DNA of 44,572 nt from Candidatus Lindowbacteria bacterium RIFCSPLOWO2_12_FULL_62_27 (GCA_001784175.1 MFPR01000027.1:579-45150), one strand, 5' to 3'. Shown: positions 849 to 10,897, counted from the stretch's first letter. The notes: generated from the sequence alone by a model not told the origin. Translations and numbers: made by a program.

Positions 849-882
849 TCTAGTCGATCCAAGCGTATATTCGAACGCAAAA

Positions 883-924: not shown

Positions 925-984
925 CTGGGGGTTTCGACATAGATCAGTTCTTTGACAAGTGAATACGGTGTTGTTTTTTCGTTT

Positions 985-1057
985 TGGAGAGTCGTCCAAA
1001 GGTAGGACCGCAGATTCTGGATCTGCGTATGCAGGTTCGATTCCTGCCTCTCCAGCC
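985..1057 (+). tRNA. tRNA-Gln(CTG), CCA encoded
   Basis: 7-bp acceptor tggagag/ctctcca. D stem gtcc/ggac. Anticodon stem gcaga/tctgc with loop ttCTGga. T arm gcagg-TTCGATT-cctgc. Discriminator G, then CCA. Confidence 0.8.
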
Positions 1058-1080
1058 AATTTTGTTTCGGGCAGTTTGGT

Positions 1081-1152
1081 GTGGTCGGAGCATGGCGGTC
1101 TGTGCGGCCGGTTGTGGCCCGGCATGCCTGGGTTCGACTCCCAGCGATCACC
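1081..1152 (+). tRNA. tRNA-His(GTG)
   Basis: Acceptor gtggtcg/cgatcac (one G-U). D stem gcat/gtgc with a GG loop. Anticodon stem gccgg/ccggc, loop ttGTGgc. T arm ctggg-TTCGACT-cccag. No G-1 or CCA encoded. Confidence 0.65.
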
Positions 1153-1167
1153 CCCGACTGCCTGGAT

Positions 1168-1252
1168 GGGCGTGTGGCAGAGCGGCGATTGCACCTGACT
1201 GTAGATCAGGCGGGCCTCTGGCCCTTCGGTGGTTCGAGTCCATCCACGCCCA
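1168..1252 (+). tRNA. tRNA-Tyr(GTA), class II
   Basis: Acceptor gggcgtg/cacgccc. 3-bp D stem. Anticodon stem cctga/tcagg, loop ctGTAga. Long variable arm. T arm ggtgg-TTCGAGT-ccatc. Confidence 0.8.
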
Positions 1253-1257
1253 TTTTT

Positions 1258-1331
1258 CCCGGTCGGAAGGAGATGGTCTCCTTGCCGCTCTCATAAGGCG
1301 GACATTCCGGGCTCGATACCCGGGGCCGGGA
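1258..1331 (+). tRNA. tRNA-Met(CAT), elongator or Ile2-type. Non-canonical T-loop CTCGATA.
   Basis: Acceptor cccggtc/ggccggg. D stem aagg/cctt. Anticodon stem ccgct/ggcgg, loop ctCATaa. T stem ccggg/cccgg. Confidence 0.6.
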
Positions 1332-1359
1332 CAAATTCTCAAGAAGGAGGTCGGAGAAA

Positions 1360-1587
1360 ATGGAGACGTACGTTTTGAAGTACACGGTGCGGTTCGTGAC
1401 GATTGACGATCCCACGGCGCGTCAGACTACTCAGCGGATTTTGACGACAGTTGGGGAATGTCTGAAAGACACACTCTCCGACCTGCCCTTGGTGGCGGAC
1501 ACGTTGGAGACGGAGGCGCGGTGTGTTCGTCACGGAGATCGGACTAACCGCGATATTCTGACTGGAAAATCTTCCGCATCAACATAA
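1360..1587 (+). CDS. hypothetical small protein (75 aa) inside the tRNA array
   Basis: Consensus RBS AAGGAGG at 1344-1350, 9 nt upstream of ATG 1360. The 228-nt ORF lies between tRNA-Met and the next tRNA-like gene. No recognizable domain. Confidence 0.35.
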   Translation: METYVLKYTVRFVTIDDPTARQTTQRILTTVGECLKDTLSDLPLVADTLETEARCVRHGDRTNRDILTGKSSAST

Positions 1588-1588
1588 C

Positions 1589-1667
1589 TGCGGAGGGGAG
1601 GTGGACGGCGGAGCCGTCTTCGAGGGCCCATAACCCTCTTAAGCCGGTGCGACTCCGGCCTCCGCTA
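1589..1667 (+). tRNA. tRNA-like, anticodon CAT, initiator-like features. About 79 nt with an expanded D region; possibly a pseudo or atypical tRNA.
   Basis: Acceptor gcggag/ctccgc with an unpaired 1:72. Anticodon stem gaggg/ccctc carries three consecutive G-C pairs, as in initiator tRNA. Loop ccCATaa. T stem gccgg/ccggc with loop TGCGACT. An extra 5-bp hairpin gacgg-cggag-ccgtc sits in the D region. Confidence 0.35.
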
Positions 1668-1668
1668 T

Positions 1669-1753
1669 GGACTCGTCGCCTAATTGGAATGGCCCCAGAC
1701 TCTTAATCTGGCGGGCGTTACGCCCATTGGGAGTTCGAGTCTCCCCGGGTCCA
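1669..1753 (+). tRNA. class II-shaped tRNA with anticodon CTT (Lys-type)
   Basis: Acceptor ggactcg/cgggtcc. 3-bp D stem gcc/ggc. Anticodon stem ccaga/tctgg, loop ctCTTaa. 17-nt extra arm forms hairpin gggcg-tta-cgccc. T arm gggag-TTCGAGT-ctccc. Discriminator A. Confidence 0.55.
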
Positions 1754-1760
1754 TTTGTAT

Positions 1761-1843
1761 TCCGAGGTCGCCTAATTGGTCGGGCAGCGCACTGTTAATG
1801 CGCCGCGGATTTCGCACTGTGGGTTCGAATCCCACCCTCGGAG
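1761..1843 (+). tRNA. class II-shaped tRNA with anticodon GTT (Asn-type)
   Basis: Acceptor tccgagg/cctcgga. 3-bp D stem gcc/ggc. Anticodon stem gcgca/tgcgc, loop ctGTTaa. 15-nt extra arm (gcg-gattt-cgc). T arm gtggg-TTCGAAT-cccac. Discriminator G. Confidence 0.55.
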
Positions 1844-1909
1844 TTTTTTCAAACGGTTTGAAGGAGGTGATGGAATTGAAATCGGACAAAGACGGTAAAG
1901 GGTAGTGAT

Positions 1910-1982
1910 GGGCTTGTAACTCAATTGGCTGAGTACCGGACTTTTAATCCGGGAGATGTGGGTTCGAGTCCCACCGGGCCCA
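1910..1982 (+). tRNA. tRNA-Lys(TTT)
   Basis: Acceptor gggcttg/cgggccc. D stem actc/gagt. Anticodon stem ccgga/tccgg, loop ctTTTaa. T arm gtggg-TTCGAGT-cccac. Confidence 0.85.
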
Positions 1983-1988
1983 AGATAC

Positions 1989-2073
1989 GGCGCAGTGGTG
2001 GAACTGGGATACACGCGAGTCTCAGAAACTCGTGCTCTATTCGAGCGTGAGAGTTCGAATCTCTCCTGCGCCA
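1989..2073 (+). tRNA. tRNA-Leu(CAG), class II
   Basis: Acceptor ggcgcag/ctgcgcc. 3-bp D stem. Anticodon stem cgagt/actcg, loop ctCAGaa. Extra arm gctc-tatt-cgagc. T arm gagag-TTCGAAT-ctctc. Discriminator A. Confidence 0.85.
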
Positions 2074-2078
2074 TTTTT

Positions 2079-2152
2079 GCGGCATTCGTATAGGGGCAAT
2101 ACATCACGTTGCCAACGTGAAGACACGAGTTCAATTCTCGTATGCCGCTCCA
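2079..2152 (+). tRNA. tRNA-Gly(GCC), CCA encoded
   Basis: Acceptor gcggcat/atgccgc. D stem gtat/atac. Anticodon stem tcacg/cgtga, loop ttGCCaa. T arm acgag-TTCAATT-ctcgt. Discriminator T, then CCA. Confidence 0.85.
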
Positions 2153-2155
2153 AGT

Positions 2156-2390
2156 GGAGGGTGAATCGATCGGGGATCGGCGCTGTGTGCTACACAGTTG
2201 GTCCGCCATGCGCGGATAGGGGTCGGCCGTTCGCGACATCCGTGTCGCTCGGCGGCACTTCCTCCGTCCATGGAGGTCGGGACCTTCGCCCTCCGTTACG
2301 GAGAGTCAACCTCGCAGGGCGAGGCACTGGTTTGAAACCAGAGGGTCCGCGAAAGTGGATGAGGATCGAGACCTCGGCTCTCCGCAAGAT
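2156..2390 (+). ncRNA. structured RNA-like element A (unassigned family). Domain 1 spans 2156-2294 and domain 2 spans 2299-2384.
   Basis: Not a tRNA. A 6-7 bp closing helix ggaggg(t)/(g)ccctcc encloses domain 1, which holds a 64-nt core nearly identical to element B. A second domain is closed by (c)ggagag/ctctcc(g). Internal hairpins tccgc-N5-gcgga and cctcc-gtccat-ggagg. Compensatory changes relative to paralog B. Confidence 0.4.
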
Positions 2391-2463
2391 GCGGGCGTGG
2401 TGTTCAACAGCAGCATGACAGTCTTCCAAACTGTCGGTGCCGGTGCAATTCCGGTCGCCCGCT
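2391..2463 (+). tRNA. tRNA-Gly(TCC)-like. Weak D arm, non-canonical T-loop TGCAATT.
   Basis: Acceptor gcgggcg/cgcccgc. Anticodon stem acagt/actgt, loop ctTCCaa. T stem gccgg/ccggt. The D loop lacks GG. Confidence 0.5.
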
Positions 2464-2469
2464 CAAAAC

Positions 2470-2543
2470 AGCCTCGTCGTCCAACTGGACAGGACACCTC
2501 TTTGCGAAGGAGGAGATTGCGCGTTCAAGTCGCGCCGAGGCTA
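2470..2543 (+). tRNA. tRNA-Arg(GCG)-like, atypical D arm
   Basis: Acceptor agcctcg/cgaggct. Anticodon stem cctct/ggagg, loop ttGCGaa. T arm gcgcg-TTCAAGT-cgcgc. The D region is one nucleotide too long with a short loop. Confidence 0.45.
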
Positions 2544-2545
2544 TA

Positions 2546-2780
2546 GGGAAGGTGAACCTCGCGGGCGGGGCGCTGTTTGGAAGACAGTCGGTCCGCTTAA
2601 AGCGGATGCGGGTCGGCCGTTCGCGACATCCCTGTCGCTCTGCGGCACTTCCTCCGTCCATGGAGGTCGGGACCGCCGCCTTCCGTTGTGGAGAGTGAAA
2701 CCGGGAAGCCCGATCGCCGTTCCGAAGACGGATGGCCCCGCCATGCGGGGTGGGGTGCGATACCTCCGCTCTCCGAAATA
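2546..2780 (+). ncRNA. structured RNA-like element B, paralog of A. Domain 1 spans 2547-2684 and domain 2 spans 2689-2775.
   Basis: Closing helix ggaagg(t)/(g)ccttcc. The 4th pair is A-U here versus G-C in element A. The 64-nt core at 2611-2674 is about 97% identical to 2221-2284. Hairpin tccgc-ttaaa-gcgga has the same stem as in A with a different loop. Second domain closed by (t)ggagag/ctctcc(g). Confidence 0.4.
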
Positions 2781-2851
2781 GGCCGGTAGTATCAACAGTA
2801 GAACGTCGGTCTCCAAAACCGAAGGTCTCGGGGCAGAACCGAGCCGGCCTG
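2780..2851 (+). tRNA. tRNA-Trp(CCA)-like. Poor D stem, non-canonical T-loop GGCAGAA.
   Basis: Acceptor aggccgg/ccggcct. Anticodon stem tcggt/accga, loop ctCCAaa. T stem ctcgg/ccgag. Confidence 0.45.
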
Positions 2852-2903
2852 TGACTGAAAGGAATCCCCGAGGTACTCGCCCGAAGGGCGGGTCGGGGAC
2901 CAT

Positions 2904-2976
2904 GGGCACTGAGCAGGCGTAGTCGTTGCGTCCGGCTGAAGACCGGAAGAGCGTGGTGCGATCCCACGAGTGCCCA
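2904..2976 (+). tRNA. tRNA-Phe(GAA). T-loop TGCGATC.
   Basis: Acceptor gggcact/agtgccc. D stem gcag/ttgc. Anticodon stem tccgg/ccgga, loop ctGAAga. T stem cgtgg/ccacg. Discriminator A. Confidence 0.7.
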
Positions 2977-2979
2977 CTT

Positions 2980-3049
2980 CGCGGCGAGCAGAGAAGCTCT
3001 GGGATGGTCTGCAAAACCATCAAAGTCGGGGCGGTACCGACCGCCGTGT
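2980..3049 (+). tRNA. tRNA-Cys(GCA)-like. Short D loop, non-canonical T-loop GGCGGTA.
   Basis: Acceptor cgcggcg/cgccgtg (one G-U). D hairpin cagag-aagc-ctctg. Anticodon stem atggt/accat, loop ctGCAaa. T stem gtcgg/ccgac. Confidence 0.45.
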
Positions 3050-3052
3050 CAC

Positions 3053-3123
3053 GCCCGATTAGGTCAGTGGCAGACCAACCGTCTTGTAAGCGGTGAACGT
3101 CGGCTCGATTCCGACATCGGGCT
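3053..3123 (+). tRNA. tRNA-Thr(TGT). T-loop CTCGATT.
   Basis: Acceptor gcccgat/atcgggc. D stem ggtc/gacc with a GG loop. Anticodon stem accgt/gcggt, loop ctTGTaa. T stem gtcgg/ccgac. Confidence 0.75.
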
Positions 3124-3130
3124 TACCTGC

Positions 3131-3203
3131 GCCCTCCTAATTCAATTGGACAGAAACGGGAGTTTCTACCTCTCGGATGCGTGTTCGAGTCACGCGGAGG
3201 GCA
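3131..3203 (+). tRNA. tRNA-Arg(TCT)
   Basis: Acceptor gccctcc/ggagggc. D loop contains GG. Anticodon stem gggag/ctctc, loop ttTCTac. T arm gcgtg-TTCGAGT-cacgc. Confidence 0.8.
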
Positions 3204-3209
3204 ATTCTC

Positions 3210-3280
3210 GCCGCCATAGTTCAGTGGCAGAACAGAAAACTCGTAATTTTCAGACCTGCGTTCGATTCGCAGTGGCGGCT
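3210..3280 (+). tRNA. tRNA-Thr(CGT)
   Basis: Acceptor gccgcca/tggcggc. D stem gttc/gaac. Anticodon stem gaaaa/ttttc, loop ctCGTaa. T arm ctgcg-TTCGATT-cgcag. Confidence 0.85.
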
Positions 3281-3284
3281 TTTC

Positions 3285-3356
3285 GGGGGCGTAGTGAGAA
3301 CGATAACACGGCTGGTCTGCACCCAGCAGATGAGAGTTTGAATCTCTCCGCCTCCA
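3285..3356 (+). tRNA. tRNA-Ala(TGC) with the G3:U70 identity pair
   Basis: Acceptor gggggcg/cgcctcc with G3-U70. Anticodon stem gctgg/ccagc, loop tcTGCac. T arm gagag-TTTGAAT-ctctc. Discriminator A. Confidence 0.75.
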
Positions 3357-3361
3357 CTTTT

Positions 3362-3447
3362 CGGCGTGTGGCTGAACGGTAAAAGCGCCGTCCTGATAAG
3401 GCGGTGGGCTGAAGTAGTCCGCGTGCGTTCGACTCGCACCGCGCCGA
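3362..3447 (+). tRNA. class II-shaped tRNA with anticodon GAT (Ile-type)
   Basis: Acceptor cggcgtg/cgcgccg. 3-bp D stem gct/agc with a GG loop. Anticodon stem ccgtc/ggcgg, loop ctGATaa. 18-nt extra arm (gggc-tgaagta-gtcc). T arm gtgcg-TTCGACT-cgcac. Discriminator A. Confidence 0.55.
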
Positions 3448-3455
3448 GCATTTAC

Positions 3456-3548
3456 CCACGGGTAGCATAGCGGCCAATGCAGCAGGCCTATAACCTGCGT
3501 TAGCTCCGGACTGGGGCGAGATCGTGGGTTCGAGTCCCACCCCGTGGA
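3456..3548 (+). tRNA. class II-shaped tRNA with anticodon TAT (AUA-reading or Ile2-type). Very long extra arm of about 25 nt.
   Basis: Acceptor ccacggg/cccgtgg. D stem gcat/atgc with a GG loop. Anticodon stem gcagg/cctgc, loop ccTATaa. T arm gtggg-TTCGAGT-cccac. Discriminator A. Confidence 0.45.
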
Positions 3549-3569
3549 TTTGATGTGTGAGGTACATAC

Positions 3570-3644
3570 GGCTCGGTGGTGTAGCAGCCTGCACACGGCT
3601 CTGTCACAGCCGAGGTACGAGGGCAGCACTCGTCCGAGCCGCCA
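3570..3644 (+). tRNA. tRNA-Asp(GTC), CCA encoded. Non-canonical T-loop GGCAGCA.
   Basis: Acceptor ggctcgg/ccgagcc. Anticodon stem cggct/agccg, loop ctGTCac. T stem acgag/ctcgt. Discriminator G, then CCA. Confidence 0.6.
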
Positions 3645-3645
3645 T

Positions 3646-3721
3646 CAGGGAATGGGATAATCTGGTAGTCCGCCGCACTTGGGACGCGGTCGTCCGAGTT
3701 CAAATCTCGGTTCCCTGACCA
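3646..3721 (+). tRNA. tRNA-Pro(TGG), CCA encoded
   Basis: Acceptor cagggaa/ttccctg. D stem ggat/gtcc with a GG loop. Anticodon loop ctTGGga. T arm ccgag-TTCAAAT-ctcgg. Discriminator A, then CCA. Confidence 0.75.
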
Positions 3722-3733
3722 AACTTCAAGTAC

Positions 3734-3808
3734 GGGCGCGTGGTCCAGCAGCGAAGACATCAGTCCTACAAACTGAAAACCTCGGTGCAAGTCCGAGCGT
3801 GCCCACCA
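3734..3808 (+). tRNA. tRNA-Val(TAC), CCA encoded. T-loop TGCAAGT.
   Basis: Acceptor gggcgcg/cgtgccc. Anticodon stem tcagt/actga, loop ccTACaa. T stem ctcgg/ccgag. Discriminator A, then CCA. Confidence 0.7.
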
Positions 3809-3865
3809 AATCTGACCGACCGGATGGAGGAAATGTCGCGGGCGCCAGGGATGGCGCAGGAGCGA

Positions 3866-3942
3866 CCTCTCGTCGCCCAATTGGAAAAGGCACCGATTTC
3901 CTAAATCGGGGACTGCGCGTTCGAATCGCGCCGAGAGGCCCA
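3866..3942 (+). tRNA. tRNA-Arg(CCT), CCA encoded
   Basis: Acceptor cctctcg/cgagagg. D stem gcc/ggc with a GG loop. Anticodon stem ccgat/atcgg, loop ttCCTaa. T arm gcgcg-TTCGAAT-cgcgc. Discriminator C, then CCA. Confidence 0.8.
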
Positions 3943-3955
3943 GTAAGACCAATGA

Positions 3956-4028
3956 CCGCTCGTAGTGAAACTGGATATCACGCGACGCTTCGAACGTCGT
4001 AATGAGGGTTCGAATCCTTCCGAGCGGA
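3956..4028 (+). tRNA. tRNA-Arg(TCG)
   Basis: Acceptor ccgctcg/cgagcgg. D stem gtga/tcac with a GG loop. Anticodon stem cgacg/cgtcg, loop ctTCGaa. T arm gaggg-TTCGAAT-ccttc. Confidence 0.85.
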
Positions 4029-4033
4029 TTTGT

Positions 4034-4116
4034 GGCGATGTGGCGGAACGGAATACGCGGCTGTTTCAAGAACAGTTGATCGTAAGATCGTGAGAGTTCG
4101 ACTCTCTCCATCGCCA
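4034..4116 (+). tRNA. tRNA-Leu(CAA), class II
   Basis: Acceptor ggcgatg/catcgcc. 3-bp D stem. Anticodon stem gctgt/acagt, loop ttCAAga. Extra arm gatcg-taa-gatcg. T arm gagag-TTCGACT-ctctc. Discriminator A. Confidence 0.8.
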
Positions 4117-4121
4117 ATTTT

Positions 4122-4205
4122 GCGGGCGTGGCGGAATGGGATACGCGGCGGATTTAAGACCCGCTGGGGCAGAGCCCCGTGCAGGTTCAAGTCCTGTCAC
4201 CCGCA
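4122..4205 (+). tRNA. tRNA-Leu(TAA), class II
   Basis: Acceptor gcgggcg/cacccgc (one mismatch). 3-bp D stem. Anticodon loop ttTAAga. Extra arm ggggc-aga-gcccc. T arm gcagg-TTCAAGT-cctgt. Discriminator A. Confidence 0.7.
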
Positions 4206-4208
4206 TTC

Positions 4209-4295
4209 GGCCGAGTGGTGGAACTGGAATACACGCGCGGTTGAGGTCCTCGTGGACGAAAGTAGTCCTTGCGAGTTCGAGTCTCGCCTCGGCCA
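4209..4295 (+). tRNA. tRNA-Leu(GAG), class II
   Basis: Acceptor ggccgag/ctcggcc. 3-bp D stem. Anticodon loop ttGAGgt. Extra arm ggac-gaaagta-gtcc. T arm gcgag-TTCGAGT-ctcgc. Discriminator A. Confidence 0.75.
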
Positions 4296-4300
4296 GTTTT

Positions 4301-4373
4301 GGGGCGGTAGGCGAATGGTAGAGCCGCCGGCCTTTCAAGCCGGAGTCTGTGGGTTCAAGTCCCATCCGCCCTG
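4301..4373 (+). tRNA. tRNA-Glu(TTC)
   Basis: Acceptor ggggcgg/ccgccct (G1-U72). D stem ggc/gcc. Anticodon stem ccggc/gccgg, loop ctTTCaa. T arm gtggg-TTCAAGT-cccat. Discriminator G. Confidence 0.8.
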
Positions 4374-4377
4374 TTGT

Positions 4378-4450
4378 GGGGGTATCGGCTAATCGGCAGG
4401 CCGCCGTGTTCTCAGCGCGGAAACCGCGGGTTCGAATCCCCGTACCCCTG
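4378..4450 (+). tRNA. tRNA-Glu(CTC)-like. Imperfect T stem.
   Basis: Acceptor gggggta/tacccct. D stem ggct/ggcc. Anticodon stem ccgtg/cgcgg, loop ttCTCag. Only 3 of 5 T-stem pairs form around TTCGAAT. Discriminator G. Confidence 0.45.
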
Positions 4451-4455
4451 GTCAT

Positions 4456-4530
4456 TGGGGAGTCGTCTAATAGGTAGGACGCGAGACTTTGGATCTCGCT
4501 ATGCAGGATCGAAGCCTGCCTCCCCAGCCA
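4456..4530 (+). tRNA. tRNA-Gln(TTG), CCA encoded. Non-canonical T-loop ATCGAAG.
   Basis: Acceptor tggggag/ctcccca. Same architecture as the first Gln. Anticodon stem cgaga/tctcg, loop ctTTGga. Discriminator G, then CCA. Confidence 0.7.
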
Positions 4531-4645
4531 TTTTCGAACAAATACGAACGTTGGCGCGGGCACGCCAGCGGCGCACAGGTGACCAAGTATCTTGGATTTC
4601 ATTTGTGCGTTCCGCCAATGGATTCTAAACGTGCCCGGAGCCAGA

Positions 4646-4718
4646 CGTTGGTTAGCTCAGCAGGCAGAGCATCAGGCTGTGAACCTGAGAGTCGCGGGTT
4701 CGAATCCCGCACCAACTT
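4646..4718 (+). tRNA. tRNA-His(GTG)-like, second copy. 1:72 mismatch.
   Basis: Acceptor cgttggt/accaact with C1 unpaired against T72. D stem gctc/gagc with a GG loop. Anticodon stem tcagg/cctga, loop ctGTGaa. T arm gcggg-TTCGAAT-cccgc. Confidence 0.55.
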
Positions 4719-5070
4719 CGGGTGGAAACACCCGCCAGTGGAAAACCGCGCAAGCGGGCTCAGAACGCGTCCGATGGAGACGAACGCTCGATCAACTGGC
4801 CGACGCGCGGATAATGGCCGCACCGGAAGTACGCGCCGGCGTCTGTCGGAGGCAACACAAATACGCCGCCCTGCAGCTCGCAGATACCGCATCGCCGACC
4901 GTGGCAACCTCCGACGGATTTCATACTCGTCGGAAAACCCATGCGAGCGATGCTCAAGCGACGCTCCGCGGATGATGTGCAGTTGGACTTGCCGTTCGTC
5001 TCCTGAGGGCCTTATTTCAACACATATCGAGAAAGGCGAAATCAAAAATCAGAAAGGGAGGTGAATCGCC

Positions 5071-6177
5071 ATGTTCTTGATTGGATACCGGAAGATTCGT
5101 TCCTACGAGAGGGGCCTGTACTTCTACGATGGGGAGTTCCGGAAAATTCTGGCCACAGGCCGACATTGGTTCGTGGATCCTCTGAACCGCATCCGGATCG
5201 ATGTTGTGTCCCAGCGCGACCCCTGGCTGGACCATGACAAGCTCGACATCATCGTCAAGTCCGGTGTCCTCAAGGACGAGGCGGTGGTACTGGACCTGAA
5301 GGACTATGAGCGCGCGCTCGTGTGGATCGACGGCCGGTTCAGCCGCGTGCTGGATGCAGGTCTCTACGCGATGTGGTCCAAGTTCCGCGACATCAAGACG
5401 GAGATCGTTGACGCGCGGGCCGTGCTGTTCGAGCACAAGAGCATCGACGTCATCCTGAAGTCGGGGGGTGTCGATGCAGTGCTCAATGTCTTCAACGTCG
5501 AGGAGGGTCACGCCGGCGTCTATTTCAAGGACGGTGAATACGTCAAGACACTGGCTCCGGGCAAGTATGCGACGTGGAAGAACGTCGGCAAGGTCAAGTT
5601 CTACCACCTCGACGTGCGCGAGACGGTACTCGACGTGGCCGGCCAGGAGATCATGACGGCCGACAAGGTCACGCTCCGGATGAACGCGATCGTGACCTAT
5701 CGCATCGTTGATGCCCGCAAGTCCGTCGAAACGGTCGGAGACGTGGCGCAGGCGCTGTATCGTGAGGCGCAGCTGGCGCTTCGTGCCGCAGTCGGCACAC
5801 GAGAGCTTGAGCCGCTTCTGGTCGACAAGACCGACGTTGCGAAGGAACTCGAGTCCGTCATTCGCCGACGCGCGAGCGAGTTCGGCATTCACGTGATCGG
5901 TCTTGGCATTCGAGACATCATCCTGCCGGGCGACATGAAGACGTTGCTCAACAAGGTGCTCGAGGCCAAGAAGGCGTCCGAGGCGAACGTGATTCTGCGA
6001 CGCGAGGAGACGGCAGCCATGCGCAGCCAGCTCAACACGGCGAAGCTCATGGAGGACAATGCGGTTCTGATGCGCCTCAAGGAACTGGAGGTGCTGGAGA
6101 AGGTCGCGGGCGCGTCTAAGCTGAGCGTCGTGCTGGGTGAGAAGGGATTGGCCGAGCGTGTGGTCAATCTGCTGTGA
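5071..6177 (+). CDS. SPFH/band-7 (stomatin/prohibitin-like) domain protein with three N-terminal ~35-aa repeats
   Basis: RBS GGGAGGTGA lies 6 nt before the ATG. A 368-aa ORF. Its C-terminal half has SPFH-like composition (TADKVTLRMNAIVTYRI...GIRDIILPGDM...coiled-coil tail). The N-terminus has three tandem ~35-aa repeats. Confidence 0.8.
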   Translation: MFLIGYRKIRSYERGLYFYDGEFRKILATGRHWFVDPLNRIRIDVVSQRDPWLDHDKLDIIVKSGVLKDEAVVLDLKDYERALVWIDGRFSRVLDAGLYAMWSKFRDIKTEIVDARAVLFEHKSIDVILKSGGVDAVLNVFNVEEGHAGVYFKDGEYVKTLAPGKYATWKNVGKVKFYHLDVRETVLDVAGQEIMTADKVTLRMNAIVTYRIVDARKSVETVGDVAQALYREAQLALRAAVGTRELEPLLVDKTDVAKELESVIRRRASEFGIHVIGLGIRDIILPGDMKTLLNKVLEAKKASEANVILRREETAAMRSQLNTAKLMEDNAVLMRLKELEVLEKVAGASKLSVVLGEKGLAERVVNLL

Positions 6178-6389
6178 GCAGTAAGGAGGAACGATGTTTA
6201 CGGTAGACGAGTTTGAAAGCGGCGGAGGGGGGCCGGATCAAAAACGCAGCGGCGGCCCCCCTCCTTGGAGCCGGGTGATCCGAACAAACAGGCAACACCG
6301 TATTCAACGCCCGCATGGTGTGAGTGGCAGCACGTCGCCGGGGTAAGGCGGAGGTCTCGGATCAAAACCGAGTGCGGGCTTGATCAATT

Positions 6390-7061
6390 ATGTTCAGGAG
6401 GAATGATGTGACTGGTGTACTGGTTCAACCAACGTTGCTTTTGAATTCCAGTTTTCTGCCGGTGTCGGTCATCCGTGTGATGGAGGCAATCTGTCTGCTC
6501 GTTACTTCCAAAGCCGATCTAATAGACGGTGACGAGAGGGAACCGATCCGTTCGCAAAGATTGTCGATCCCTCTGCCGAGGGTCGTACGCCTGTTGAATT
6601 TCAACGGGATTCCGTCGAACCCGGCCTGGTCAAGATTGAAGGTGATTTACCGGGACGACATGACCTGCGCCTGGTGCGGCAAGCGCGGCCGTATGGAGGA
6701 ACTGGACTGCGACCACATCATTCCCCGATCACGGTGGCACGTTTGTCCGCCGAATCTTCGCCGAGCATACGAAGTTCCACGAGTGAAACTCCAGAACATT
6801 GCAGCCCCTTGGAATTCGTGGATGAACACCCTCGCGGCCTGTCGAAAATGCAACGCCGCCAAGGGAAATCTCTATCCATGGGAGATGGGCCACCGCCCCC
6901 TCTGGTCGCCGTACGAGCCGGAATACGTCCCATCCATCATTGTCAGCTTCGAGCGAGCAAAAAATCTTGGCTGGCTGGATTATCTGCTCACGCGCCGCGG
7001 GACGCTCGTCTATCCGTCGGGAGTGCGTGCCGTGGGTGTGCCCTCCAGAAAACGGATATAG
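6390..7061 (+). CDS. HNH endonuclease family protein
   Basis: RBS AGGAGGAATG precedes the ATG. HNH motif CAWCGK...DHIIP...N...CRKCNAAKG (CxxC...H...N...CxxC). Confidence 0.75.
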   Translation: MFRRNDVTGVLVQPTLLLNSSFLPVSVIRVMEAICLLVTSKADLIDGDEREPIRSQRLSIPLPRVVRLLNFNGIPSNPAWSRLKVIYRDDMTCAWCGKRGRMEELDCDHIIPRSRWHVCPPNLRRAYEVPRVKLQNIAAPWNSWMNTLAACRKCNAAKGNLYPWEMGHRPLWSPYEPEYVPSIIVSFERAKNLGWLDYLLTRRGTLVYPSGVRAVGVPSRKRI

Positions 7062-7075
7062 TATTTAATACTAAT
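7059..7075. repeat. 17-bp AT-rich near-palindromic site TAGTATTTAATACTAAT, copy 1
   Basis: Identical 17-mer at 9114-9130. Both copies sit in short AT-rich intergenic islands of a GC-rich genome. Confidence 0.7.
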
Positions 7076-7154
7076 TTATTGACTACTGGACAAATCACTG
7101 GTACATGCAGTATAGACACTGTAAGACCGAATAAACTGATGGGGGTGGTCCATT

Positions 7155-7433
7155 GTGACGGTTCCAGAAACAGAATCGAACGAGGCACAGAAAACCGAAG
7201 AAATCTGTAAGCGTAAACCCGGGATTCCGGACGTGCCCATTCCATCTGGCCCGTACCTGAATTCTGTAGAAGCCGCCTGTTATTTGCGCTTGTCGCTCGG
7301 CACAATCGCCAACCTTGTATCCGAGGGGAAGATTCCTTTTGCAAAAGCGGGCCGCCGGCGCGTCTTCCGTAGGACCGACCTCGATGAATATGTCGAGAAG
7401 TCGTACAAGCCGGCAGTCCACAACTCGTTTTAG
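7155..7433 (+). CDS. excisionase/Xis-like helix-turn-helix DNA-binding protein
   Basis: GTG start with a GGGGGTGG RBS. The C-terminal segment SVEAACYLRLSLGTIANLVSEGKIPFAKAGRRRVFRRTDLDEYV resembles the excisionase-family (MerR-like) HTH. Confidence 0.55.
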   Translation: MTVPETESNEAQKTEEICKRKPGIPDVPIPSGPYLNSVEAACYLRLSLGTIANLVSEGKIPFAKAGRRRVFRRTDLDEYVEKSYKPAVHNSF

Positions 7434-7945
7434 GCCGGCTCTTCAGGGAAATCCTTCCTGGGAAAAGGAATAATTTTGTTCTGCCCAAGATCTTTCTTCA
7501 CGGCAGATTCCTCGAAGCCTGGCAACGGTGCTTGTGGCGGAGTTTCCTTGCGAGTTTCCGTCCGGTAGATTTCCTCTTTGTTTTTCATTCGAAAGTGTCG
7601 CACCAAATCTTCGACGCCCCGCTGCTGACCATCCTTTAAGTCCTCGATCCCGATCAAAGATCCTCGGGACCATTTTGTGGTCAGGATGCCATCCCCGGGC
7701 AGTTTCTGATGGGCGCCTATATCTTGGCCGAGAACATAGAGCGCCTGCTGATAAGGGATGACATTTGGTGTTCCCGATGATGAGAGGATCTTCAAATACT
7801 GATCCAAGGTCGGCACCGCGCGCCCAGTGAGAATCTTTCGGAATTCAGGAGCCTTCAGGAATGGCAGATCAAGATGACGGGTGATTCGACGTAAGAAGAC
7901 ATGTAGCCTCAGTGGCTTCTTCAACGGGGTCGTGGGCTCGTTCAA
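7430..7945 (-). CDS. hypothetical protein (171 aa)
   Basis: ORF convergent with the xis-like gene. No recognizable domain. Confidence 0.4.
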   Translation of the reverse strand: MNEPTTPLKKPLRLHVFLRRITRHLDLPFLKAPEFRKILTGRAVPTLDQYLKILSSSGTPNVIPYQQALYVLGQDIGAHQKLPGDGILTTKWSRGSLIGIEDLKDGQQRGVEDLVRHFRMKNKEEIYRTETRKETPPQAPLPGFEESAVKKDLGQNKIIPFPRKDFPEEPA

Positions 7946-8214
7946 TTACCACAGGAATGCTGCTTCGACTTCGACTGCGTTCGGTTCATCGTCGGCCTCC
8001 TCGATATGAATATCCCCCTCAGAATTCCGGTGATTCGGGAGGCGACGGGGTTTTCCTGAACGACGTTGATCAAGTATCGCGACAGATCACTGATCAGTCA
8101 AAATCAGATTTTCTCTGGCTGAATCTTTTTGTTTGGAGGATTGATTGGCGGCAGATTTTCCACAATCGCGCGGCGGATACTACAAGTTTCTAAAAGGGAT
8201 ACTACCAGTACAGC

Positions 8215-8283
8215 GTGACAAGATGCACAGGCCGGACGTGACAGCATATCGTGCGTTTCTCTCGGACGGCCGTGTGACAAGAT
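8215..8283. repeat. iteron-like direct repeats GTGACA(A/G)(G/C)AT x3, at 8215, 8238 and 8274
   Basis: Three copies within 70 bp in the non-coding gap downstream of the Rep-like gene. Two copies are identical (GTGACAAGAT). Confidence 0.5.
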
Positions 8284-8324
8284 ACCGTGCACAATTCCCA
8301 GAATCCACACGGAAGTGTGGACAA

Positions 8325-9095
8325 CTATTGTGGAACCGACGGCGGGGATGGCCTCAAGATCAGATGTCGAGCTTCGAGTTCGACTTTCGCATCCGGATAG
8401 ACTGCGAGTACCCGGATGAGATTTTCACGCAACGCGCGTTTAAAAAAGCGCAGCCGGGAATAATCGGCTCCAAACTGACAGAACAGGGCACATAGGGGAA
8501 TAGCCGTTGCGGTACGGAGATAACTGAAGCGGTAGGTGAGCCAGGCATAGAGATCGATCGCCAGAGATGAGCGTTTCAAGGTGCAGATGGCATCCGGTCG
8601 CAATGGAATCGACGATTGCACCGCATGAAGATAAAACTCCGCCGTTACGCGGATCTCTGTTTGAAAGAGGGATCGTTCATACGGTCGCTTGGGGTCCCAC
8701 CAGAGTTCAAACTCCACGGCGACTCTCATTTGCTCGATCACGCCGGACATTCGACCGAATGCGATGGTTGACGCCAGAAGCCGGCTGACTTGGTCGTAGA
8801 ATCGCCGGCGCGTGTGGCCGTCCGGACTCAAGCCAAGCCCTGCTAGAAACGAATGGTAGGACTCGTCGAGTTCTATTCGCCGTTGCCCTGTGATCAAAAT
8901 CTGCCTGGTGAGCCACATGAGAAACAGCCGGGGGTAACTCGCGTAGGGCAGACCCAGATTCGGGTTGGCCCGAACATTGAGGACATAGTCATTGGCGCGG
9001 CGGGTCCAGATGGTTTCACCGGCGCGGTCGGAATGGGGGAGGTTCGCCACAACGAAGGACTTCGGAAGATAGACGGGGTTGGTCTTGGCATTCAT
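8325..9095 (-). CDS. hypothetical protein, possibly a plasmid/ICE-type replication initiator (weak call)
   Basis: 256-aa ORF flanked by iteron-like repeats and TCCACA/TGTGGA motifs. It is divergent from the HTH regulator and integrase genes. The functional guess rests on context only. Confidence 0.45.
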   Translation of the reverse strand: MNAKTNPVYLPKSFVVANLPHSDRAGETIWTRRANDYVLNVRANPNLGLPYASYPRLFLMWLTRQILITGQRRIELDESYHSFLAGLGLSPDGHTRRRFYDQVSRLLASTIAFGRMSGVIEQMRVAVEFELWWDPKRPYERSLFQTEIRVTAEFYLHAVQSSIPLRPDAICTLKRSSLAIDLYAWLTYRFSYLRTATAIPLCALFCQFGADYSRLRFFKRALRENLIRVLAVYPDAKVELEARHLILRPSPPSVPQ

Positions 9096-9113
9096 GTGGC
9101 CGCAAGGTATTAG

Positions 9114-9130
9114 TATTTAATACTAATGTC
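9114..9130. repeat. 17-bp site TAGTATTTAATACTAAT, copy 2
   Basis: Identical to 7059-7075. Extended, it reads ATTAGTATTTAATACTAAT, which is nearly palindromic. Confidence 0.7.
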
Positions 9131-9150
9131 AATGTGTTTGGGGCAATTTG

Positions 9151-9212
9151 TCCACAATACCAACAGGCTATCCACAAACCTTGACATGACCGGTCGCGGC
9201 TGGGATAATTCG
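9151..9212 (+). promoter_or_regulatory. two TCCACAA direct repeats (9154-9160 and 9174-9180) followed by a promoter TTGACA (9184-9189) -17 nt- GATAAT (9207-9212)
   Basis: Near-consensus -35/-10 with 17-nt spacing. Two TCCACAA boxes 20 bp apart lie immediately upstream. The inverse TGTGGA appears at 8316 and 8331, and TCCACA at 8304 and 8160. Confidence 0.55.
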
Positions 9213-9237
9213 CGCACTACCGCAAAGGGGGCCATCC

Positions 9238-9669
9238 ATGGAGCAAGGTGAAAGGATATACGAGATATTCCGCAAGCGCGCCAAGGCGCGAGAGCTGACC
9301 GTTCAAGAAATCGTCAACGGGCTCGGCAAGAAGGATACAACCCACTACAGCCTTTATCAGTTCTCCATCGGCAAGAGCATGCCGCCGATTCACAAGCTCG
9401 CCGCGTATTTCGAATCCGTGGGCATGCGCCTCCTTCTTGAGGCGGATGGAAACGTCTATGCGCTTGAGTTCAAGGACCGGGTCCAGCCGAAGCGGGAGGG
9501 CGACCGGATGATGGTCGGCGAGCGCGTCAGTGTCGGAGGCGAGTACGCGGATCTCACGCCGGACCAGATCAGCGCCGTCGAAGCCCTGGTTGCGTCGTTC
9601 CGAGCCACAAACAAGCGCGTGAAACGATCCCGGGTCGAAACAGCGGCCAAGGTCAGACGGGCCGCGTAG
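9238..9669 (+). CDS. helix-turn-helix (XRE/Cro-like) transcriptional regulator
   Basis: 143-aa ORF downstream of the strong promoter. N-terminal segment ELTVQEIVNGLGKKDTTHYSLYQFSIGKSMPPIHKLAAYFESVGMRL resembles an HTH. Confidence 0.55.
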   Translation: MEQGERIYEIFRKRAKARELTVQEIVNGLGKKDTTHYSLYQFSIGKSMPPIHKLAAYFESVGMRLLLEADGNVYALEFKDRVQPKREGDRMMVGERVSVGGEYADLTPDQISAVEALVASFRATNKRVKRSRVETAAKVRRAA

Positions 9670-9681
9670 GGGACAAATCCC

Positions 9682-10788
9682 ATGGGCGTTCGAGCGATCA
9701 CGCGATTACCGAGTGGCGAATATCGCGTCAATTTCTATTACTGGAATCAGATCGGCATGAAGCATCGCGGGCGGAAGAAATTCCGTACGCTGCGGCTTGC
9801 AGAGACGTTCTATGCCGAGAGGATTCGTGAATTTGAAGCGAAGGTGCATGTTGGCTCGAAGGAGCGAGGGTCGATCACGGTGAAGCAATTCCTGGACCAG
9901 CATTATTATCCATGGGCGCAGAAGGCCAAGAAATCTTATCCCGTGGAAAGAGTGTTCATGAGGAATACCGAAGTGCGATGGGGCGAACGCCGACTCTCGT
10001 CAATCACTGTGTTTGATATTGAAAAGTGGCGGATTGAAATGAAGCAGAAGGTCTGCCCGGCGACCGTCAGCCGCCGACTGGCGTATCTTCGGTCCTTCTT
10101 CAAATTCGCGCATGCCGGCATGACGGACGAGGATGGCCACACGGTCGGCGGCGGATTCATCGGCGACAATCCGATGCGGCATGTTCGAAGCCCGAAAACG
10201 AAGCTGCCTCTTCGACCGCCGACGATTCTGGCGCCGGATGAAATTGCGAGGCTCAAGCCCGATGGGACGCGCGGGATGGATCTCGTTTTATTCTGCATTT
10301 ATTCGGGGATGCGCCGGGGCGAGATATTCCGGATGCGGTACGAGGACATAGATCGCGTGGCCGGCGTCATCCGGATCCCCGTCACGAAAAACGACGAGCC
10401 GCGGATCATTCCGTTGACGAAACAGCTTGCCGGTATTATTGACAGACAACCGGTGGACGATTCGGGATTTGTTTTTTCATGGAAGGGAAGGCAAACTAGG
10501 GACTGTCGTAGCGCGATCAATCAGGCGCTCTGGCGCGTGGGGATCACACGGCGGGTCCGGATGCATGACCTTCGCCACACGTTCGGCTCGTACCTGGCCA
10601 TGAACGGGGTAGACTTGGACGAAAGGATGGCTCTGATGGGGCACAAGACAATCACAGCGGCGCGGATTTATACCCATTATTATACGAAACGCCTGTCGGA
10701 GTCGATGGAGAGGCTGATGGAGGCCTATGAGACGGCCGAGGAGAAAACAAAAGGGCACAAAAAGGGCACTGAGGCGATTGCCGTATGA
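9682..10788 (+). CDS. int: tyrosine-type site-specific recombinase / phage integrase
   Basis: C-terminal catalytic motifs: R...HDLRHTFGSYLAMNGVDLDERMALMGHKTITAARIYTHY (HxxR...Y). 368 aa. Lies immediately upstream of tRNA-Thr(CGT). Confidence 0.9.
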   Translation: MGVRAITRLPSGEYRVNFYYWNQIGMKHRGRKKFRTLRLAETFYAERIREFEAKVHVGSKERGSITVKQFLDQHYYPWAQKAKKSYPVERVFMRNTEVRWGERRLSSITVFDIEKWRIEMKQKVCPATVSRRLAYLRSFFKFAHAGMTDEDGHTVGGGFIGDNPMRHVRSPKTKLPLRPPTILAPDEIARLKPDGTRGMDLVLFCIYSGMRRGEIFRMRYEDIDRVAGVIRIPVTKNDEPRIIPLTKQLAGIIDRQPVDDSGFVFSWKGRQTRDCRSAINQALWRVGITRRVRMHDLRHTFGSYLAMNGVDLDERMALMGHKTITAARIYTHYYTKRLSESMERLMEAYETAEEKTKGHKKGTEAIAV

Positions 10789-10824
10789 GGCGTACTTTTA
10801 TAATTCTCTCTTGTAGTTATGGTT

Positions 10825-10897
10825 GCCAACGTAGCTCAGACGGTAGAGCAACGCACTCGTAATGCGTAGGTCGGCGGTTCGATTCCGCCCGTTGGCT
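10825..10897 (+). tRNA. tRNA-Thr(CGT)
   Basis: Acceptor gccaacg/cgttggc. D stem gctc/gagc with loop AGACGGTA. Anticodon stem acgca/tgcgt, loop ctCGTaa. T arm ggcgg-TTCGATT-ccgcc. Discriminator T. Confidence 0.85.

What the first reader, a model, noticed from the sequence alone, without database searches (positions are those of the whole stretch)
5071..10897. Accessory module (SPFH protein, HNH endonuclease, Xis-like, Rep-like, HTH regulator, tyrosine integrase) abutting tRNA-Thr(CGT) in an atypical orientation
The integrase (9682-10788) ends 36 bp before the 5' end of a perfectly folded tRNA-Thr(CGT) and is transcribed toward it. In most tRNA-targeting elements, int instead lies just beyond the tRNA 3' end. 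A second, sequence-divergent tRNA-Thr(CGT) sits inside the array (3210-3280). I could not locate a direct repeat of the tRNA 3' end by eye, so the island boundaries and att sites remain undefined. The element may extend leftwards through the tRNA array.
Basis: partly seen in the sequence, partly recalled or inferred. Interest (0 to 1): 0.55.

Follow-up and report, generated by a model that had tools for sequence, protein, structure and literature searches.

The report
Genomic island anchored upstream of tRNA-Thr
The integrase next to tRNA-Thr(CGT) marks the right end of a roughly 33-kb foreign island in an uncultivated groundwater bacterium (Candidatus Lindowbacteria), and its "backwards" position is a shared trait of a small integrase clade that appears to insert upstream of tRNA genes, a known but rare arrangement.

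Summary
An intact tyrosine integrase (9682-10788) ends 36 nt before a canonical tRNA-Thr(CGT) and points at it, and the window holds no repeat of that tRNA. The orientation is not a one-off. Every close homologue whose DNA I could fetch (55-97% identity, five distinct contexts, four tRNA species) lies 19-36 nt upstream of a co-directional tRNA. One relative (L039) is a complete 5.25-kb element bracketed by two tRNA-Val(GAC) copies. These are identical in the 5' 41 nt, and the far copy is a misfolded chimera. That fits crossover in the anticodon loop with the element supplying the 5' half, the minority "5'-fragment" configuration (159 of 3919 Islander islands). Positions 494-7058 (tRNA array, SPFH, HNH) form a cargo cassette that a 93%-identical sister island lacks. 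Positions 7059-10897 are the conserved Xis/RepA/Int core, under purifying selection. The island runs about 22 kb left of the window to a Maf gene. I found no attL, not even a degenerate one, and no empty site. This copy is probably anchored; one relative has lost most of int. I rate it a new member of a known kind, of moderate interest.

The parts
1..493 (-). Island backbone: the 5' part of a 179-aa ORF that continues left of the window. It is shared with sister island L021.
   Evidence: L021 6823-7315 matches window 1-493 at 92.7%. The gene is called in L001/L028. It has no Pfam hit.
494..7058 (+). Cargo cassette of 6.56 kb. It holds a low-GC leader, the 28-tRNA array (985-4719), SPFH, tRNA-Thr(GGT)-like and HNH. 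In sister island L021 it is absent and 59 unrelated nt take its place.
   Evidence: Junctions were read directly and mapped by BLAST. Part of the cassette (4542-7046) recurs at 90% identity in L064. It has no terminal repeats.
582..609 (+). Promoter-like site (TTGACT-16-GATAAT) at the left end of the cassette. A strong terminator follows at 879-915.
   Evidence: Consensus scan only.
5071..6177 (+). SPFH/Band-7 protein, part of the cassette cargo.
   Evidence: PF01145, E=2.2e-30. No PADLOC or PHROG hit.
6309..6380 (+). tRNA-Thr(GGT)-like gene, part of the cassette cargo.
   Evidence: Found by ARAGORN only and not reported by Rfam at gathering score. Its minimum-energy fold is not a cloverleaf. 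It is conserved in L064.
6390..7061 (+). HNH endonuclease, the last gene of the cassette. Its stop codon TAG is the first three bases of the 17-nt palindrome.
   Evidence: phrog_16726 at E=9e-15. Pfam HNH_4 scores 22.3 bits against a cut-off of 22. Sequence read.
7059..7075 (.). Palindromic 17-mer TAGTATTTAATACTAAT, copy 1. It is a candidate operator or iteron, and homology to L021 resumes here.
   Evidence: Exact repeat (D20). Both copies are conserved in L021 despite 7% divergence.
7155..7433 (+). Excisionase-family HTH_17 protein (Xis-like).
   Evidence: PF12728 at E=3e-13. TIGR01764 at 49.2 bits against a cut-off of 28.8. dN/dS 0.12 against L021.
7430..7945 (-). Conserved 171-aa protein of unknown function.
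   Evidence: No profile hits. Present in L021, with dN/dS 0.22.
8325..9095 (-). RepA_C plasmid replication initiator.
   Evidence: PF04796 at E=3e-17. 35-38% identity over 96% of its length to annotated RepA on 1091 plasmids. dN/dS 0.09.
9111..9127 (.). Palindromic 17-mer, copy 2. It lies between the divergent repA gene and the orf143-int operon.
9181..9209 (+). Best promoter-like site in the region (TTGACA-17-TG-GATAAT), upstream of orf143-int.
   Evidence: Consensus scan, 11 of 12 positions matched.
9238..9669 (+). Conserved 143-aa protein directly upstream of int. It is a possible XRE-like regulator or directionality factor.
   Evidence: 65% identical to the 144-aa protein upstream of int in L023. 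No profile hit. The AlphaFold model was unusable, pLDDT 42.
9682..10788 (+). Tyrosine integrase, intact.
   Evidence: PF00589 at E=1.2e-24. R211, K236, H295, R298, H321 and Y330 are invariant in the clade alignment. dN/dS 0.07 against L021.
10749..10769 (+). Tandem AAAAGGGCAC / AAAAAGGGCAC repeat inside the int 3' coding end. It is a candidate arm-type Int-binding site.
   Evidence: In L039 the same pair also occurs 67 nt beyond the far tRNA copy (D2). The repeat sequence co-varies within each element: GGTCAC twice in L023, GGGCAG three times in L025.
10789..10824 (+). Element-derived 36-nt spacer with TATAAT at 10799-10804. It is a candidate promoter for the downstream tRNA.
   Evidence: Read directly. 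The spacer is conserved in L021 and L064. Its function is inferred.
10825..10897 (+). tRNA-Thr(CGT): the right end of the island and the proposed attR.
   Evidence: Similarity to L021 ends at 10905, similarity to L064 ends at 10900, and L007 diverges after 10898.

Best explanation
**What the region is**
Positions 7059-10897 are the integration/replication core of a roughly 33-kb low-GC genomic island in a Candidatus Lindowbacteria chromosome. The core consists of two operator-like palindromes, a Xis-family protein, orf171, a RepA_C initiator, orf143 and Int. The island's right end is tRNA-Thr(CGT).

**How the integrase clade appears to work**
The integrase belongs to a small clade whose attP is a tRNA-like sequence lying directly downstream of int. 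I propose that strand exchange occurs in the anticodon loop and that the element donates the promoter-proximal spacer and the 5' half of the tRNA. After integration the element therefore lies upstream of the regenerated tRNA, with int pointing into it (attR). The displaced host 5' half, fused to the element's decayed 3' half, ends up at the far end (attL). This mirrors the usual replacement of the 3' end.

**The cargo cassette**
Positions 5071-7058 (SPFH, a tRNA-Thr(GGT)-like gene, HNH) do not belong to this core. They form the tail of a 6.56-kb cargo cassette (494-7058) that also carries the 28-tRNA array.

**Status of this copy**
The far-end att copy is gone, so the island is most likely anchored and cannot excise through attL x attR. 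The core genes have nevertheless been kept intact by selection.

**Shown versus inferred**
- Shown: the gene identities, the clade-wide int-to-tRNA adjacency, the L039 bracket structure, the cassette indel, the island extent, and the absence of attL.
- Inferred: the crossover position, the promoter donation, the arm sites, and the present immobility.
For: **Clade-wide adjacency**
- All close homologues with DNA available have a co-directional tRNA 19-36 nt after int.
- These are L021 Thr(CGT), L023/L040 Thr(GGT), L025-27/L041 Val(TAC), and L039 and L042 Val(GAC).
- The P0004 contig has a tRNA-sized 166-nt gap between int and chromosomal genes.

**The complete element L039**
- It has tRNA-Val(GAC) copies at 5891-5964 and 11145-11218, 5254 bp apart, with int at the right end.
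- The 5' 41 nt are identical, and all 9 differences fall in the 3' 33 nt (P=3.5e-4).
- The right copy scores 67.2 bits with no bad pairs. The left copy scores 53.9 bits with two non-standard pairs in the anticodon stem and no cloverleaf minimum-energy fold.
- Its flanks are chromosomal, and its cargo is a C5-methylase plus an HNH protein.

**Arm-like repeats**
- They lie on both sides of the L039 tRNA core and co-vary within each element.

**Sister island L021**
- It is 93% identical over window 7051-10905 and 1-493.
- It lacks 494-7058 and has a different right flank that begins 0-8 nt after the tRNA.

**Island extent and composition**
- Maf lies at window coordinate about -22142.
- The island is 33,039 bp at 55.2% GC, against 61.2% and 63.3% in the flanks.

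**Evidence on mobility**
- No tRNA fragment, degenerate copy or arm motif occurs anywhere to the left.
- Every contig carrying the identical cupin or Maf gene also carries the island.
- L064 keeps the cassette tail and the tRNA but has lost Xis, RepA, orf143 and most of int.

**Precedent and selection**
- The configuration is known: Islander lists 159 islands with a 5' fragment against 3760 with a 3' fragment (PMC4383910).
- The core genes are intact, with dN/dS 0.07-0.22.
Against: - The 5'-half mechanism rests on a single complete element, L039. I could not fetch an unoccupied attB for it.
- The two L039 copies also share their last 8 nt (AGCGCCCA). In every pairwise comparison, similarity ends at the tRNA 3' end. 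A crossover at the 3' end with a fully element-borne tRNA is therefore not excluded.
- For the window island itself no attL exists, so the mechanism is inferred by homology only.
- Purifying selection on all five core genes sits uneasily with an immobile relic. So does scaffold L007, which is 100% identical over 7.7 kb yet has a different right flank.
- Promoter and arm-site roles rest on sequence patterns only.
Confidence: 0.6

Rival explanations
1. The element carries a complete, functional tRNA of its own at its right end, and recombination occurs at or just after the tRNA 3' end (a T-arm/acceptor site). On this reading the tRNA-Thr(CGT) is element cargo plus attP, not a regenerated host gene.
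For: - Similarity between the window and L021, L064 and L007 ends 0-8 nt after the tRNA 3' end.
- L039 and L042 share int and the tRNA, and their similarity ends exactly at the tRNA 3' end, with non-syntenic flanks.
- The two L039 copies share their last 8 nt.
- The element already carries many tRNAs as cargo.
Against: - The L039 left copy is a chimera. Its 5' 41 nt are identical to the right copy, but its 3' strand does not pair with the anticodon stem. A 3'-end crossover does not predict this.
- The 10825 tRNA is the most canonical in the window (73 bits), whereas most of the array tRNAs score lower.
Confidence: 0.2
2. The island is still an active integrative plasmid-like element. Its attL either lies outside the 43 kb I examined or shares too short a core to be detected.
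For: - All five core genes are intact, with dN/dS 0.07-0.22.
- L021 carries the same backbone next to different chromosomal genes.
- L007 shows the identical element with a third flank.
Against: - To the left, conserved chromosomal genes (Maf, Dus, aldo-keto reductase, AhpC and others) begin about 33 kb from the tRNA.
- Nothing there matches the tRNA 5' half with 14 or fewer mismatches out of 41, and there is no arm motif.
- No empty site or alternative left junction appears among 17 contigs.
- L007 may be a chimeric join at a tRNA shared by different community members.
Confidence: 0.12
3. The integrase-tRNA adjacency is coincidental, and the integrase is a relic or Xer-like recombinase unrelated to the tRNA.
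For: No att duplication exists in this locus. NCBIfam gives weak, sub-threshold Xer hits.
Against: - The adjacency recurs in five independent contexts with four different tRNA species.
- L039 has the full bracket structure.
- The integrase sits with Xis and RepA genes inside low-GC DNA.
Confidence: 0.03
4. It is a canonical 3'-type island in which int belongs to an element lying downstream (to the right) of the tRNA.
For: The same tRNA does host a canonical downstream integrase in L064.
Against: - In the window the right flank is GC-rich housekeeping DNA: cupin, 5'-nucleotidase, thioredoxins, FtsZ and FtsA.
- Int lies on the 5' side of the tRNA.
Confidence: 0.02

Closest known systems
tDNA-targeting genomic islands of the minority 5'-fragment configuration, as catalogued by Islander (Hudson et al. 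2015, PMC4383910)
   Same: - A tyrosine integrase and an island bounded by an intact tRNA gene.
- In the complete relative L039, the displaced copy shares the tRNA 5' part and lies upstream in the same orientation.
- The proposed anticodon-centred crossover matches Islander's class A site.
   Different: - In L039 the displaced copy is a full-length tRNA look-alike rather than a bare fragment. Islander's filter against hits inside full-length tRNA genes would discard it.
- The window island has no displaced copy at all.
- The host is a candidate phylum known only from metagenome-assembled genomes.
[quoted passage not shown] 2008, PMC2440964)
   Same: - A compact module of replication initiator, excisionase and integrase, with attP directly downstream of int.
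- tRNA genes as targets.
- The element can be thought of as an integrating plasmid.
   Different: - The AICE attB overlaps the tRNA 3' end; here the identity block is the 5' half.
- The initiator is RepA_C (PF04796), not RepSA, RepAM or a Prim-Pol protein.
- The precomputed Pfam annotations of the island genes show no FtsK/TraB-type transfer gene and no Nudix gene.
- The host phylum is different.
tRNA array units carried by mobile elements (Mycobacterium plasmids, phages and ICEs, PMC5966550; Acidithiobacillus ICEs, PMC5468388)
   Same: A dense array of about 28 tRNA genes sits inside horizontally acquired DNA next to integration genes.
   Different: - Here the array is a discrete 6.56-kb cassette with SPFH and HNH genes and its own promoter-like and terminator-like sites.
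- The cassette is present or absent between otherwise 93%-identical islands.
- The host is Lindowbacteria.

Membership tests
Tyrosine recombinase / phage integrase (PF00589) | Catalytic-domain profile match above the curated threshold | tested here: met
   87.4 bits against a cut-off of 27.1, E=1.2e-24. phrog_1 at E=2e-60.
Tyrosine recombinase / phage integrase (PF00589) | Catalytic R-K-H-x-x-R-H-Y residues present | tested here: met
   R211, K236, H295, R298, H321 and Y330 are invariant across the 10-sequence clade alignment. I assigned them to catalytic roles by motif context, not by structure.
tDNA-targeting genomic island (Islander definition) | Integrase gene inside an island that is bounded by an intact tRNA gene | tested here: met
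tDNA-targeting genomic island (Islander definition) | Cognate tDNA fragment in the same orientation at the other island end | tested here: not met
   No fragment of 12 nt or more, and no copy with 14 or fewer mismatches out of 41, in the window or in 43 kb to the left. The feature is met in relative L039.
tDNA-targeting genomic island, 5'-fragment configuration | Island upstream of the regenerated tDNA, with the displaced copy sharing the tDNA 5' part | tested here: inconclusive
   The position upstream of the tRNA is met in the window. The 5'-part identity is shown only in L039.
AICE-type integrating plasmid | Rep + Xis + Int module with attP directly downstream of int | tested here: met
   RepA_C, the TIGR01764 excisionase domain and Int were detected. 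The tRNA lies 36 nt after int. Its identity as attP is inferred.
AICE-type integrating plasmid | [quoted passage not shown] | tested here: not met
   The L039 identity block covers the 5' 41 nt.
AICE-type integrating plasmid | FtsK/TraB-like conjugative translocase | tested here: not met
   No such Pfam family appears among the called genes of the 33-kb island in the precomputed annotations. Many of those genes have no hit at all, so this is only weak negative evidence.
ICE (type IV secretion) | Relaxase, coupling protein and VirB4 | tested here: not met
   None appear in the precomputed Pfam lists. Only weak FHIPEP/AAA hits occur. The sister island L021 has an ArdC-like gene.
tRNA array unit | 20 or more tRNA genes at high density | tested here: met
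   28 ARAGORN calls in 985-4719. Rfam reports 25 tRNA matches there at gathering score, including one at 2780-2851 that ARAGORN does not call.

The most novel reading that the evidence does not exclude
This Lindowbacteria integrase clade may be a dedicated 5'-half-replacing lineage. On this reading its attP is a decayed pseudo-tRNA fused to the end of int, and its arm sites are written into the integrase's own C-terminal coding sequence. After integration, the host's only functional copy of the target tRNA would depend on an element-supplied promoter and 5' half. That would act as a "tRNA hostage", stabilising the island and explaining why the core stays under purifying selection even without an attL. 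In addition, the tRNA-array/SPFH/HNH cassette may be a separately mobile unit that moves between such islands.
Probability: 0.15. Interest if true: 0.6.

Novelty: new member of a known kind. Interest (0 to 1): 0.4.

Why it matters
- It explains an apparent anomaly, an integrase on the "wrong" side of a tRNA, as a lineage-specific use of the rare 5'-type tRNA integration geometry.
- It supplies a concrete bracketed example (L039) and a recognisable signature: int, a tandem repeat in its 3' coding end, a short spacer, then a tRNA.
- Island finders that look only for 3' tRNA fragments, or that discard hits inside full-length tRNAs, would miss such elements. Annotators of candidate-phylum genomes should therefore know the pattern.
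- It shows that a 28-tRNA array in an uncultivated groundwater phylum is portable cargo inside a mosaic island rather than a chromosomal feature.

Tried and rejected
**att and repeat searches**
- Exact, 3-mismatch and BLAST-short searches with the tRNA and its flanks found nothing beyond chance 9-11-mers. I ran them on the window and on every locus to the left.
- A Hamming scan for degenerate 5'-half, 3'-half and anticodon-arm copies over a 44-kb composite hit only other array tRNAs.
- An 11-mer, GGGGGATCGGG, flanks int plus tRNA in L025-27. I judged it chance, since about one such match is expected.

**Empty-site searches**
- The identical cupin, Maf and 75-aa proteins always occur with the island.
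- Look-ups of P0005 and P0142 were not on record. The P0004 contig had no DNA available.
- The single metagenome scan with the tRNA 5' 42-mer returned one contig, L064.

**Other database searches**
- A viral-contig scan with the integrase alignment found nothing.
- The cassette against phage genomes matched only single tRNAs. SPFH against phages gave only weak partial matches.
- PADLOC found no defence-system match for the island proteins beyond sub-threshold noise.

**Structure and cassette ends**
- The AlphaFold model of orf143 had pLDDT 42 and was unusable.
- A search for terminal direct or inverted repeats at the cassette ends found none.

**Evidence I considered and set aside**
- Logan unitigs break inside the tRNA (L006/L016). 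I first read this as evidence of population heterogeneity. I rejected that because any community member sharing 30 nt of this tRNA would create the same branch.
- L007's alternative right flank is left unresolved. It is either a real second context or a chimeric join.

Full report
**1.

ARAGORN finds 30 tRNA genes in the window.
- 28 form an array at 985-4719.
- One tRNA-Thr(GGT) lies at 6309-6380.
- tRNA-Thr(CGT) lies at 10825-10897.

A second, divergent tRNA-Thr(CGT) sits in the array at 3210-3280. The 10825 copy has the highest Rfam score in the window, 73 bits. It folds as a perfect cloverleaf.

ORF 9682-10788 is a 368-aa tyrosine integrase, matching PF00589 at E=1.2e-24 and phrog_1 at E=2e-60. 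Its stop codon is 36 nt from the tRNA 5' end, and both lie on the + strand.

- SPFH at 5071-6177.
- HNH at 6390-7061.
- An excisionase-family HTH_17 protein at 7155-7433. TIGR01764 scores 49 bits against a cut-off of 28.8.
- A RepA_C initiator at 8325-9095 on the minus strand. It is 35-38% identical over its full length to annotated RepA on more than 1000 plasmids.

The 143-aa ORF at 9238-9669 has no profile support as an HTH protein. No part of the tRNA is repeated anywhere in the window.

**2. Source and surroundings**

The window is identical to contigs assembled from Rifle aquifer samples and to contig MFPQ01000117.1 of assembly GCA_001782795.1. Identical proteins from this locus are named Candidatus Lindowbacteria in NCBI records.

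To the right of the tRNA lies GC-rich chromosomal DNA (62-66% GC). It carries a 66-aa ORF, a cupin, a 5'-nucleotidase-like protein, thioredoxins, FtsZ and FtsA.

**3. The orientation is a clade trait**

A search of 5.8 billion proteins found only about ten close relatives of the integrase (54-97% identity). The next hits drop to 34% or less.

Every close relative whose DNA I could fetch has a co-directional tRNA 19-36 nt after int:

| Locus | Identity to window Int | tRNA after int |
|---|---|---|
| L021 | 97% | Thr(CGT), identical to the window's |
| L023/L040 (named Candidatus Lindowbacteria) | 67% | Thr(GGT), then Cys |
| L025-27/L041 | 55% | Val(TAC) |
| L039 and L042 | 55% and 65% | Val(GAC) |

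A sixth relative, P0004, has a tRNA-sized 166-nt gap between int and chromosomal genes. In each case mobile-element cargo lies to the left of int and housekeeping genes lie to the right of the tRNA. The cargo includes restriction-modification genes, an abortive-infection gene, a helicase and repressors.

**4. One relative shows the whole structure**

In L039 two tRNA-Val(GAC) genes lie 5254 bp apart, at 5891-5964 and 11145-11218. They bracket a C5-methylase, an HNH/HTH protein, an HTH_3 repressor and int. Int sits at the right end and points into the right-hand tRNA.

- The two copies are identical over the 5' 41 nt, from the 5' end through the anticodon loop.
- They differ at 9 of the remaining 33 positions. 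All 9 falling there by chance has P=3.5e-4.
- The right copy scores 67.2 Rfam bits with no aberrant pair.
- The left copy scores 53.9 bits, has two non-standard pairs in the anticodon stem and lacks a cloverleaf minimum-energy fold.

The left copy is therefore a chimera joined in or near the anticodon loop. The simplest reading has three parts:
- attP is a tRNA-like sequence directly after int.
- Exchange occurs in the anticodon loop.
- The element supplies the 5' half, and the upstream spacer, to the regenerated gene at attR.

The host 5' half, fused to the element's drifted 3' half, is left at attL.

A tandem repeat, AAAAGGGCAC twice, lies in the int 3' coding end and again 67 nt beyond the left copy (D2). 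Within each element the repeat units share the same variant: GGTCAC twice in L023 and GGGCAG three times in L025. This suggests arm-type binding sites on both sides of attP.

This geometry is the mirror image of the usual 3'-end replacement. It is already catalogued: Islander lists 159 islands with a 5' tDNA fragment against 3760 with a 3' fragment (PMC4383910).

The module order of Rep, Xis, Int and then attP recalls the actinomycete integrating elements. In those elements attP lies directly downstream of int, but attB overlaps the tRNA 3' end (PMC2440964).

**5.

Sister island L021 aligns to window 1-493 at 92.7% and to window 7051-10905 at 93.1%. Only 59 unrelated nucleotides lie between the two blocks in L021.

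Positions 494-7058 are therefore a 6.56-kb cassette that is either present or absent. It holds:
- a low-GC leader with a promoter-like site and a strong terminator;
- the 28-tRNA array;
- SPFH;
- the Thr(GGT)-like tRNA;
- HNH.

Its right junction is the HNH stop codon. That codon overlaps a 17-nt palindrome, TAGTATTTAATACTAAT. The palindrome recurs at 9111-9127, between repA and the orf143-int operon, and both copies are conserved in L021. The cassette has no terminal repeats and no counterpart in phage genomes.

Positions 7059-10897 are the conserved core. Between the window and L021 all five core genes are intact. dS is about 0.22-0.26 and dN/dS is 0.07-0.22. In the window, int is therefore not a relic.

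**6. Extent of the island and the missing attL**

I walked left through a 260-kb Rifle scaffold and overlapping contigs (L028, L045, L051/L056). Reading leftward from the window, the low-GC DNA contains:
- a YAcAr-domain gene;
- a 14.4-kb block of hypothetical genes that L021 also lacks;
- a PDDEXK nuclease;
- several small ORFs and a DUF6088 gene;
- a RelE-like/HTH_3 pair.

It then meets Maf, Dus and further housekeeping genes at window coordinate about -22142. The island is thus 33,039 bp at 55.2% GC, against 61.2% and 63.3% in its flanks.

Nowhere in it, nor in 10 kb beyond it, did I find any of the following:
- a tRNA outside the array;
- a tRNA-Thr fragment;
- a degenerate copy with 14 or fewer mismatches out of 41;
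- the arm repeat.

All contigs that carry the identical cupin, Maf or 75-aa proteins also carry the island.

The only metagenome contig sharing the tRNA 5' 42-mer is L064. It keeps the cassette tail and the tRNA but has lost Xis, RepA, orf143 and all but two fragments of int. A different tyrosine integrase sits in the canonical position just downstream of the same tRNA. The tRNA is therefore a hot spot used from both sides, and the upstream module can decay.

**7. What remains uncertain**

- The 5'-half mechanism rests on a single bracketed element.
- The rival is a fully element-borne tRNA with exchange at the 3' end. It is favoured by the fact that similarity between relatives always stops at the tRNA 3' end.
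- Scaffold L007 is 100% identical to window 3182-10898 and then continues into a different GC-rich flank. This could mean recent mobility or a chimeric join at a shared tRNA.
- Purifying selection on the core also leaves open that the element is still active by a route I could not see.

**8. Verdict**

The locus is the anchored right end of a mosaic island whose integrase belongs to a clade using the rare upstream (5'-type) tRNA geometry. The island carries a separable tRNA-array cassette as cargo. It is a new member of a known kind, of moderate interest.

Noticed in passing
window 985-4719: The 28-tRNA array covers 15 amino acids; ARAGORN calls no Met, Trp, Cys, Asp or Ser tRNA. Several class-I tRNAs are called at unusual lengths: Ile 89 and 93 nt, Lys 87 nt, Asn 85 nt. 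Rfam finds one more tRNA at 2780-2851 that ARAGORN misses, while five ARAGORN calls get no Rfam match at gathering score (array: 2470, 2904, 3131, 3866; plus 6309).
   Followed up: partly
window 2179-2309 and 2569-2699; L064 2738-2803: A 131-nt repeat (85% identity) occurs twice in the array spacers. Its 56-66-nt core also matches at 91-93% inside the HNH ORF of relative L064, where L064 carries about 50 extra nt. It may be a small mobile or tRNA-derived repeat.
   Followed up: partly
L064 3200-3290 and 3138-4763 (minus strand): Downstream of the same tRNA-Thr(CGT), L064 has a second tyrosine integrase in the canonical position. Three GTGCGTAGGYYGCTGGT repeats lie in its C-terminal coding tail, and its ORF reads through the tRNA on the opposite strand. 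As with the window integrase, arm-like repeats are embedded in the end of the int gene.
   Followed up: partly
L007 7718-8078: Rifle scaffold_26314 is identical to window 3182-10898 and then continues into an unrelated GC-rich open frame (MSKYRDISAYMVATRAARAKALG...) with no Pfam hit. It is either a second chromosomal context or an assembly chimera.
   Followed up: partly
L001 170-300 (window about -150 to -20): A nested inverted repeat (GCAAAAATAAAAG...CTTTTATTTTTGC around GGAGACGGCCACAT...ATGTGGCCGTCTCC) lies just left of the window. Several independent assemblies end within about 150 nt of it.
   Followed up: no
L045 3085-17485 (left of the window): A 14.4-kb block of about 19 mostly unannotated genes is a second indel relative to sister island L021. 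Its only Pfam hits are a weak FHIPEP/Bac_export_2 match, an AAA protein and a weak sigma-70 region-4 match. In one sample (L052/L057) an IS630-type transposase lies next to the 307-aa gene that borders the block's left junction.
   Followed up: no
L042 595-700: Directly after the tRNA-Val(GAC) of L042 there is a tandem GAAAGGGGCCTCG repeat. It may be the arm site of yet another element downstream of that tRNA.
   Followed up: no
window 10945-11205 (minus strand); L010 1537-1704: The small ORF between the tRNA and the cupin gene has low GC (about 52-53%). One contig (L010) diverges from the window inside it, at window position 10975. The right island boundary may therefore be slightly fuzzy, or this ORF may vary between strains.
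   Followed up: no
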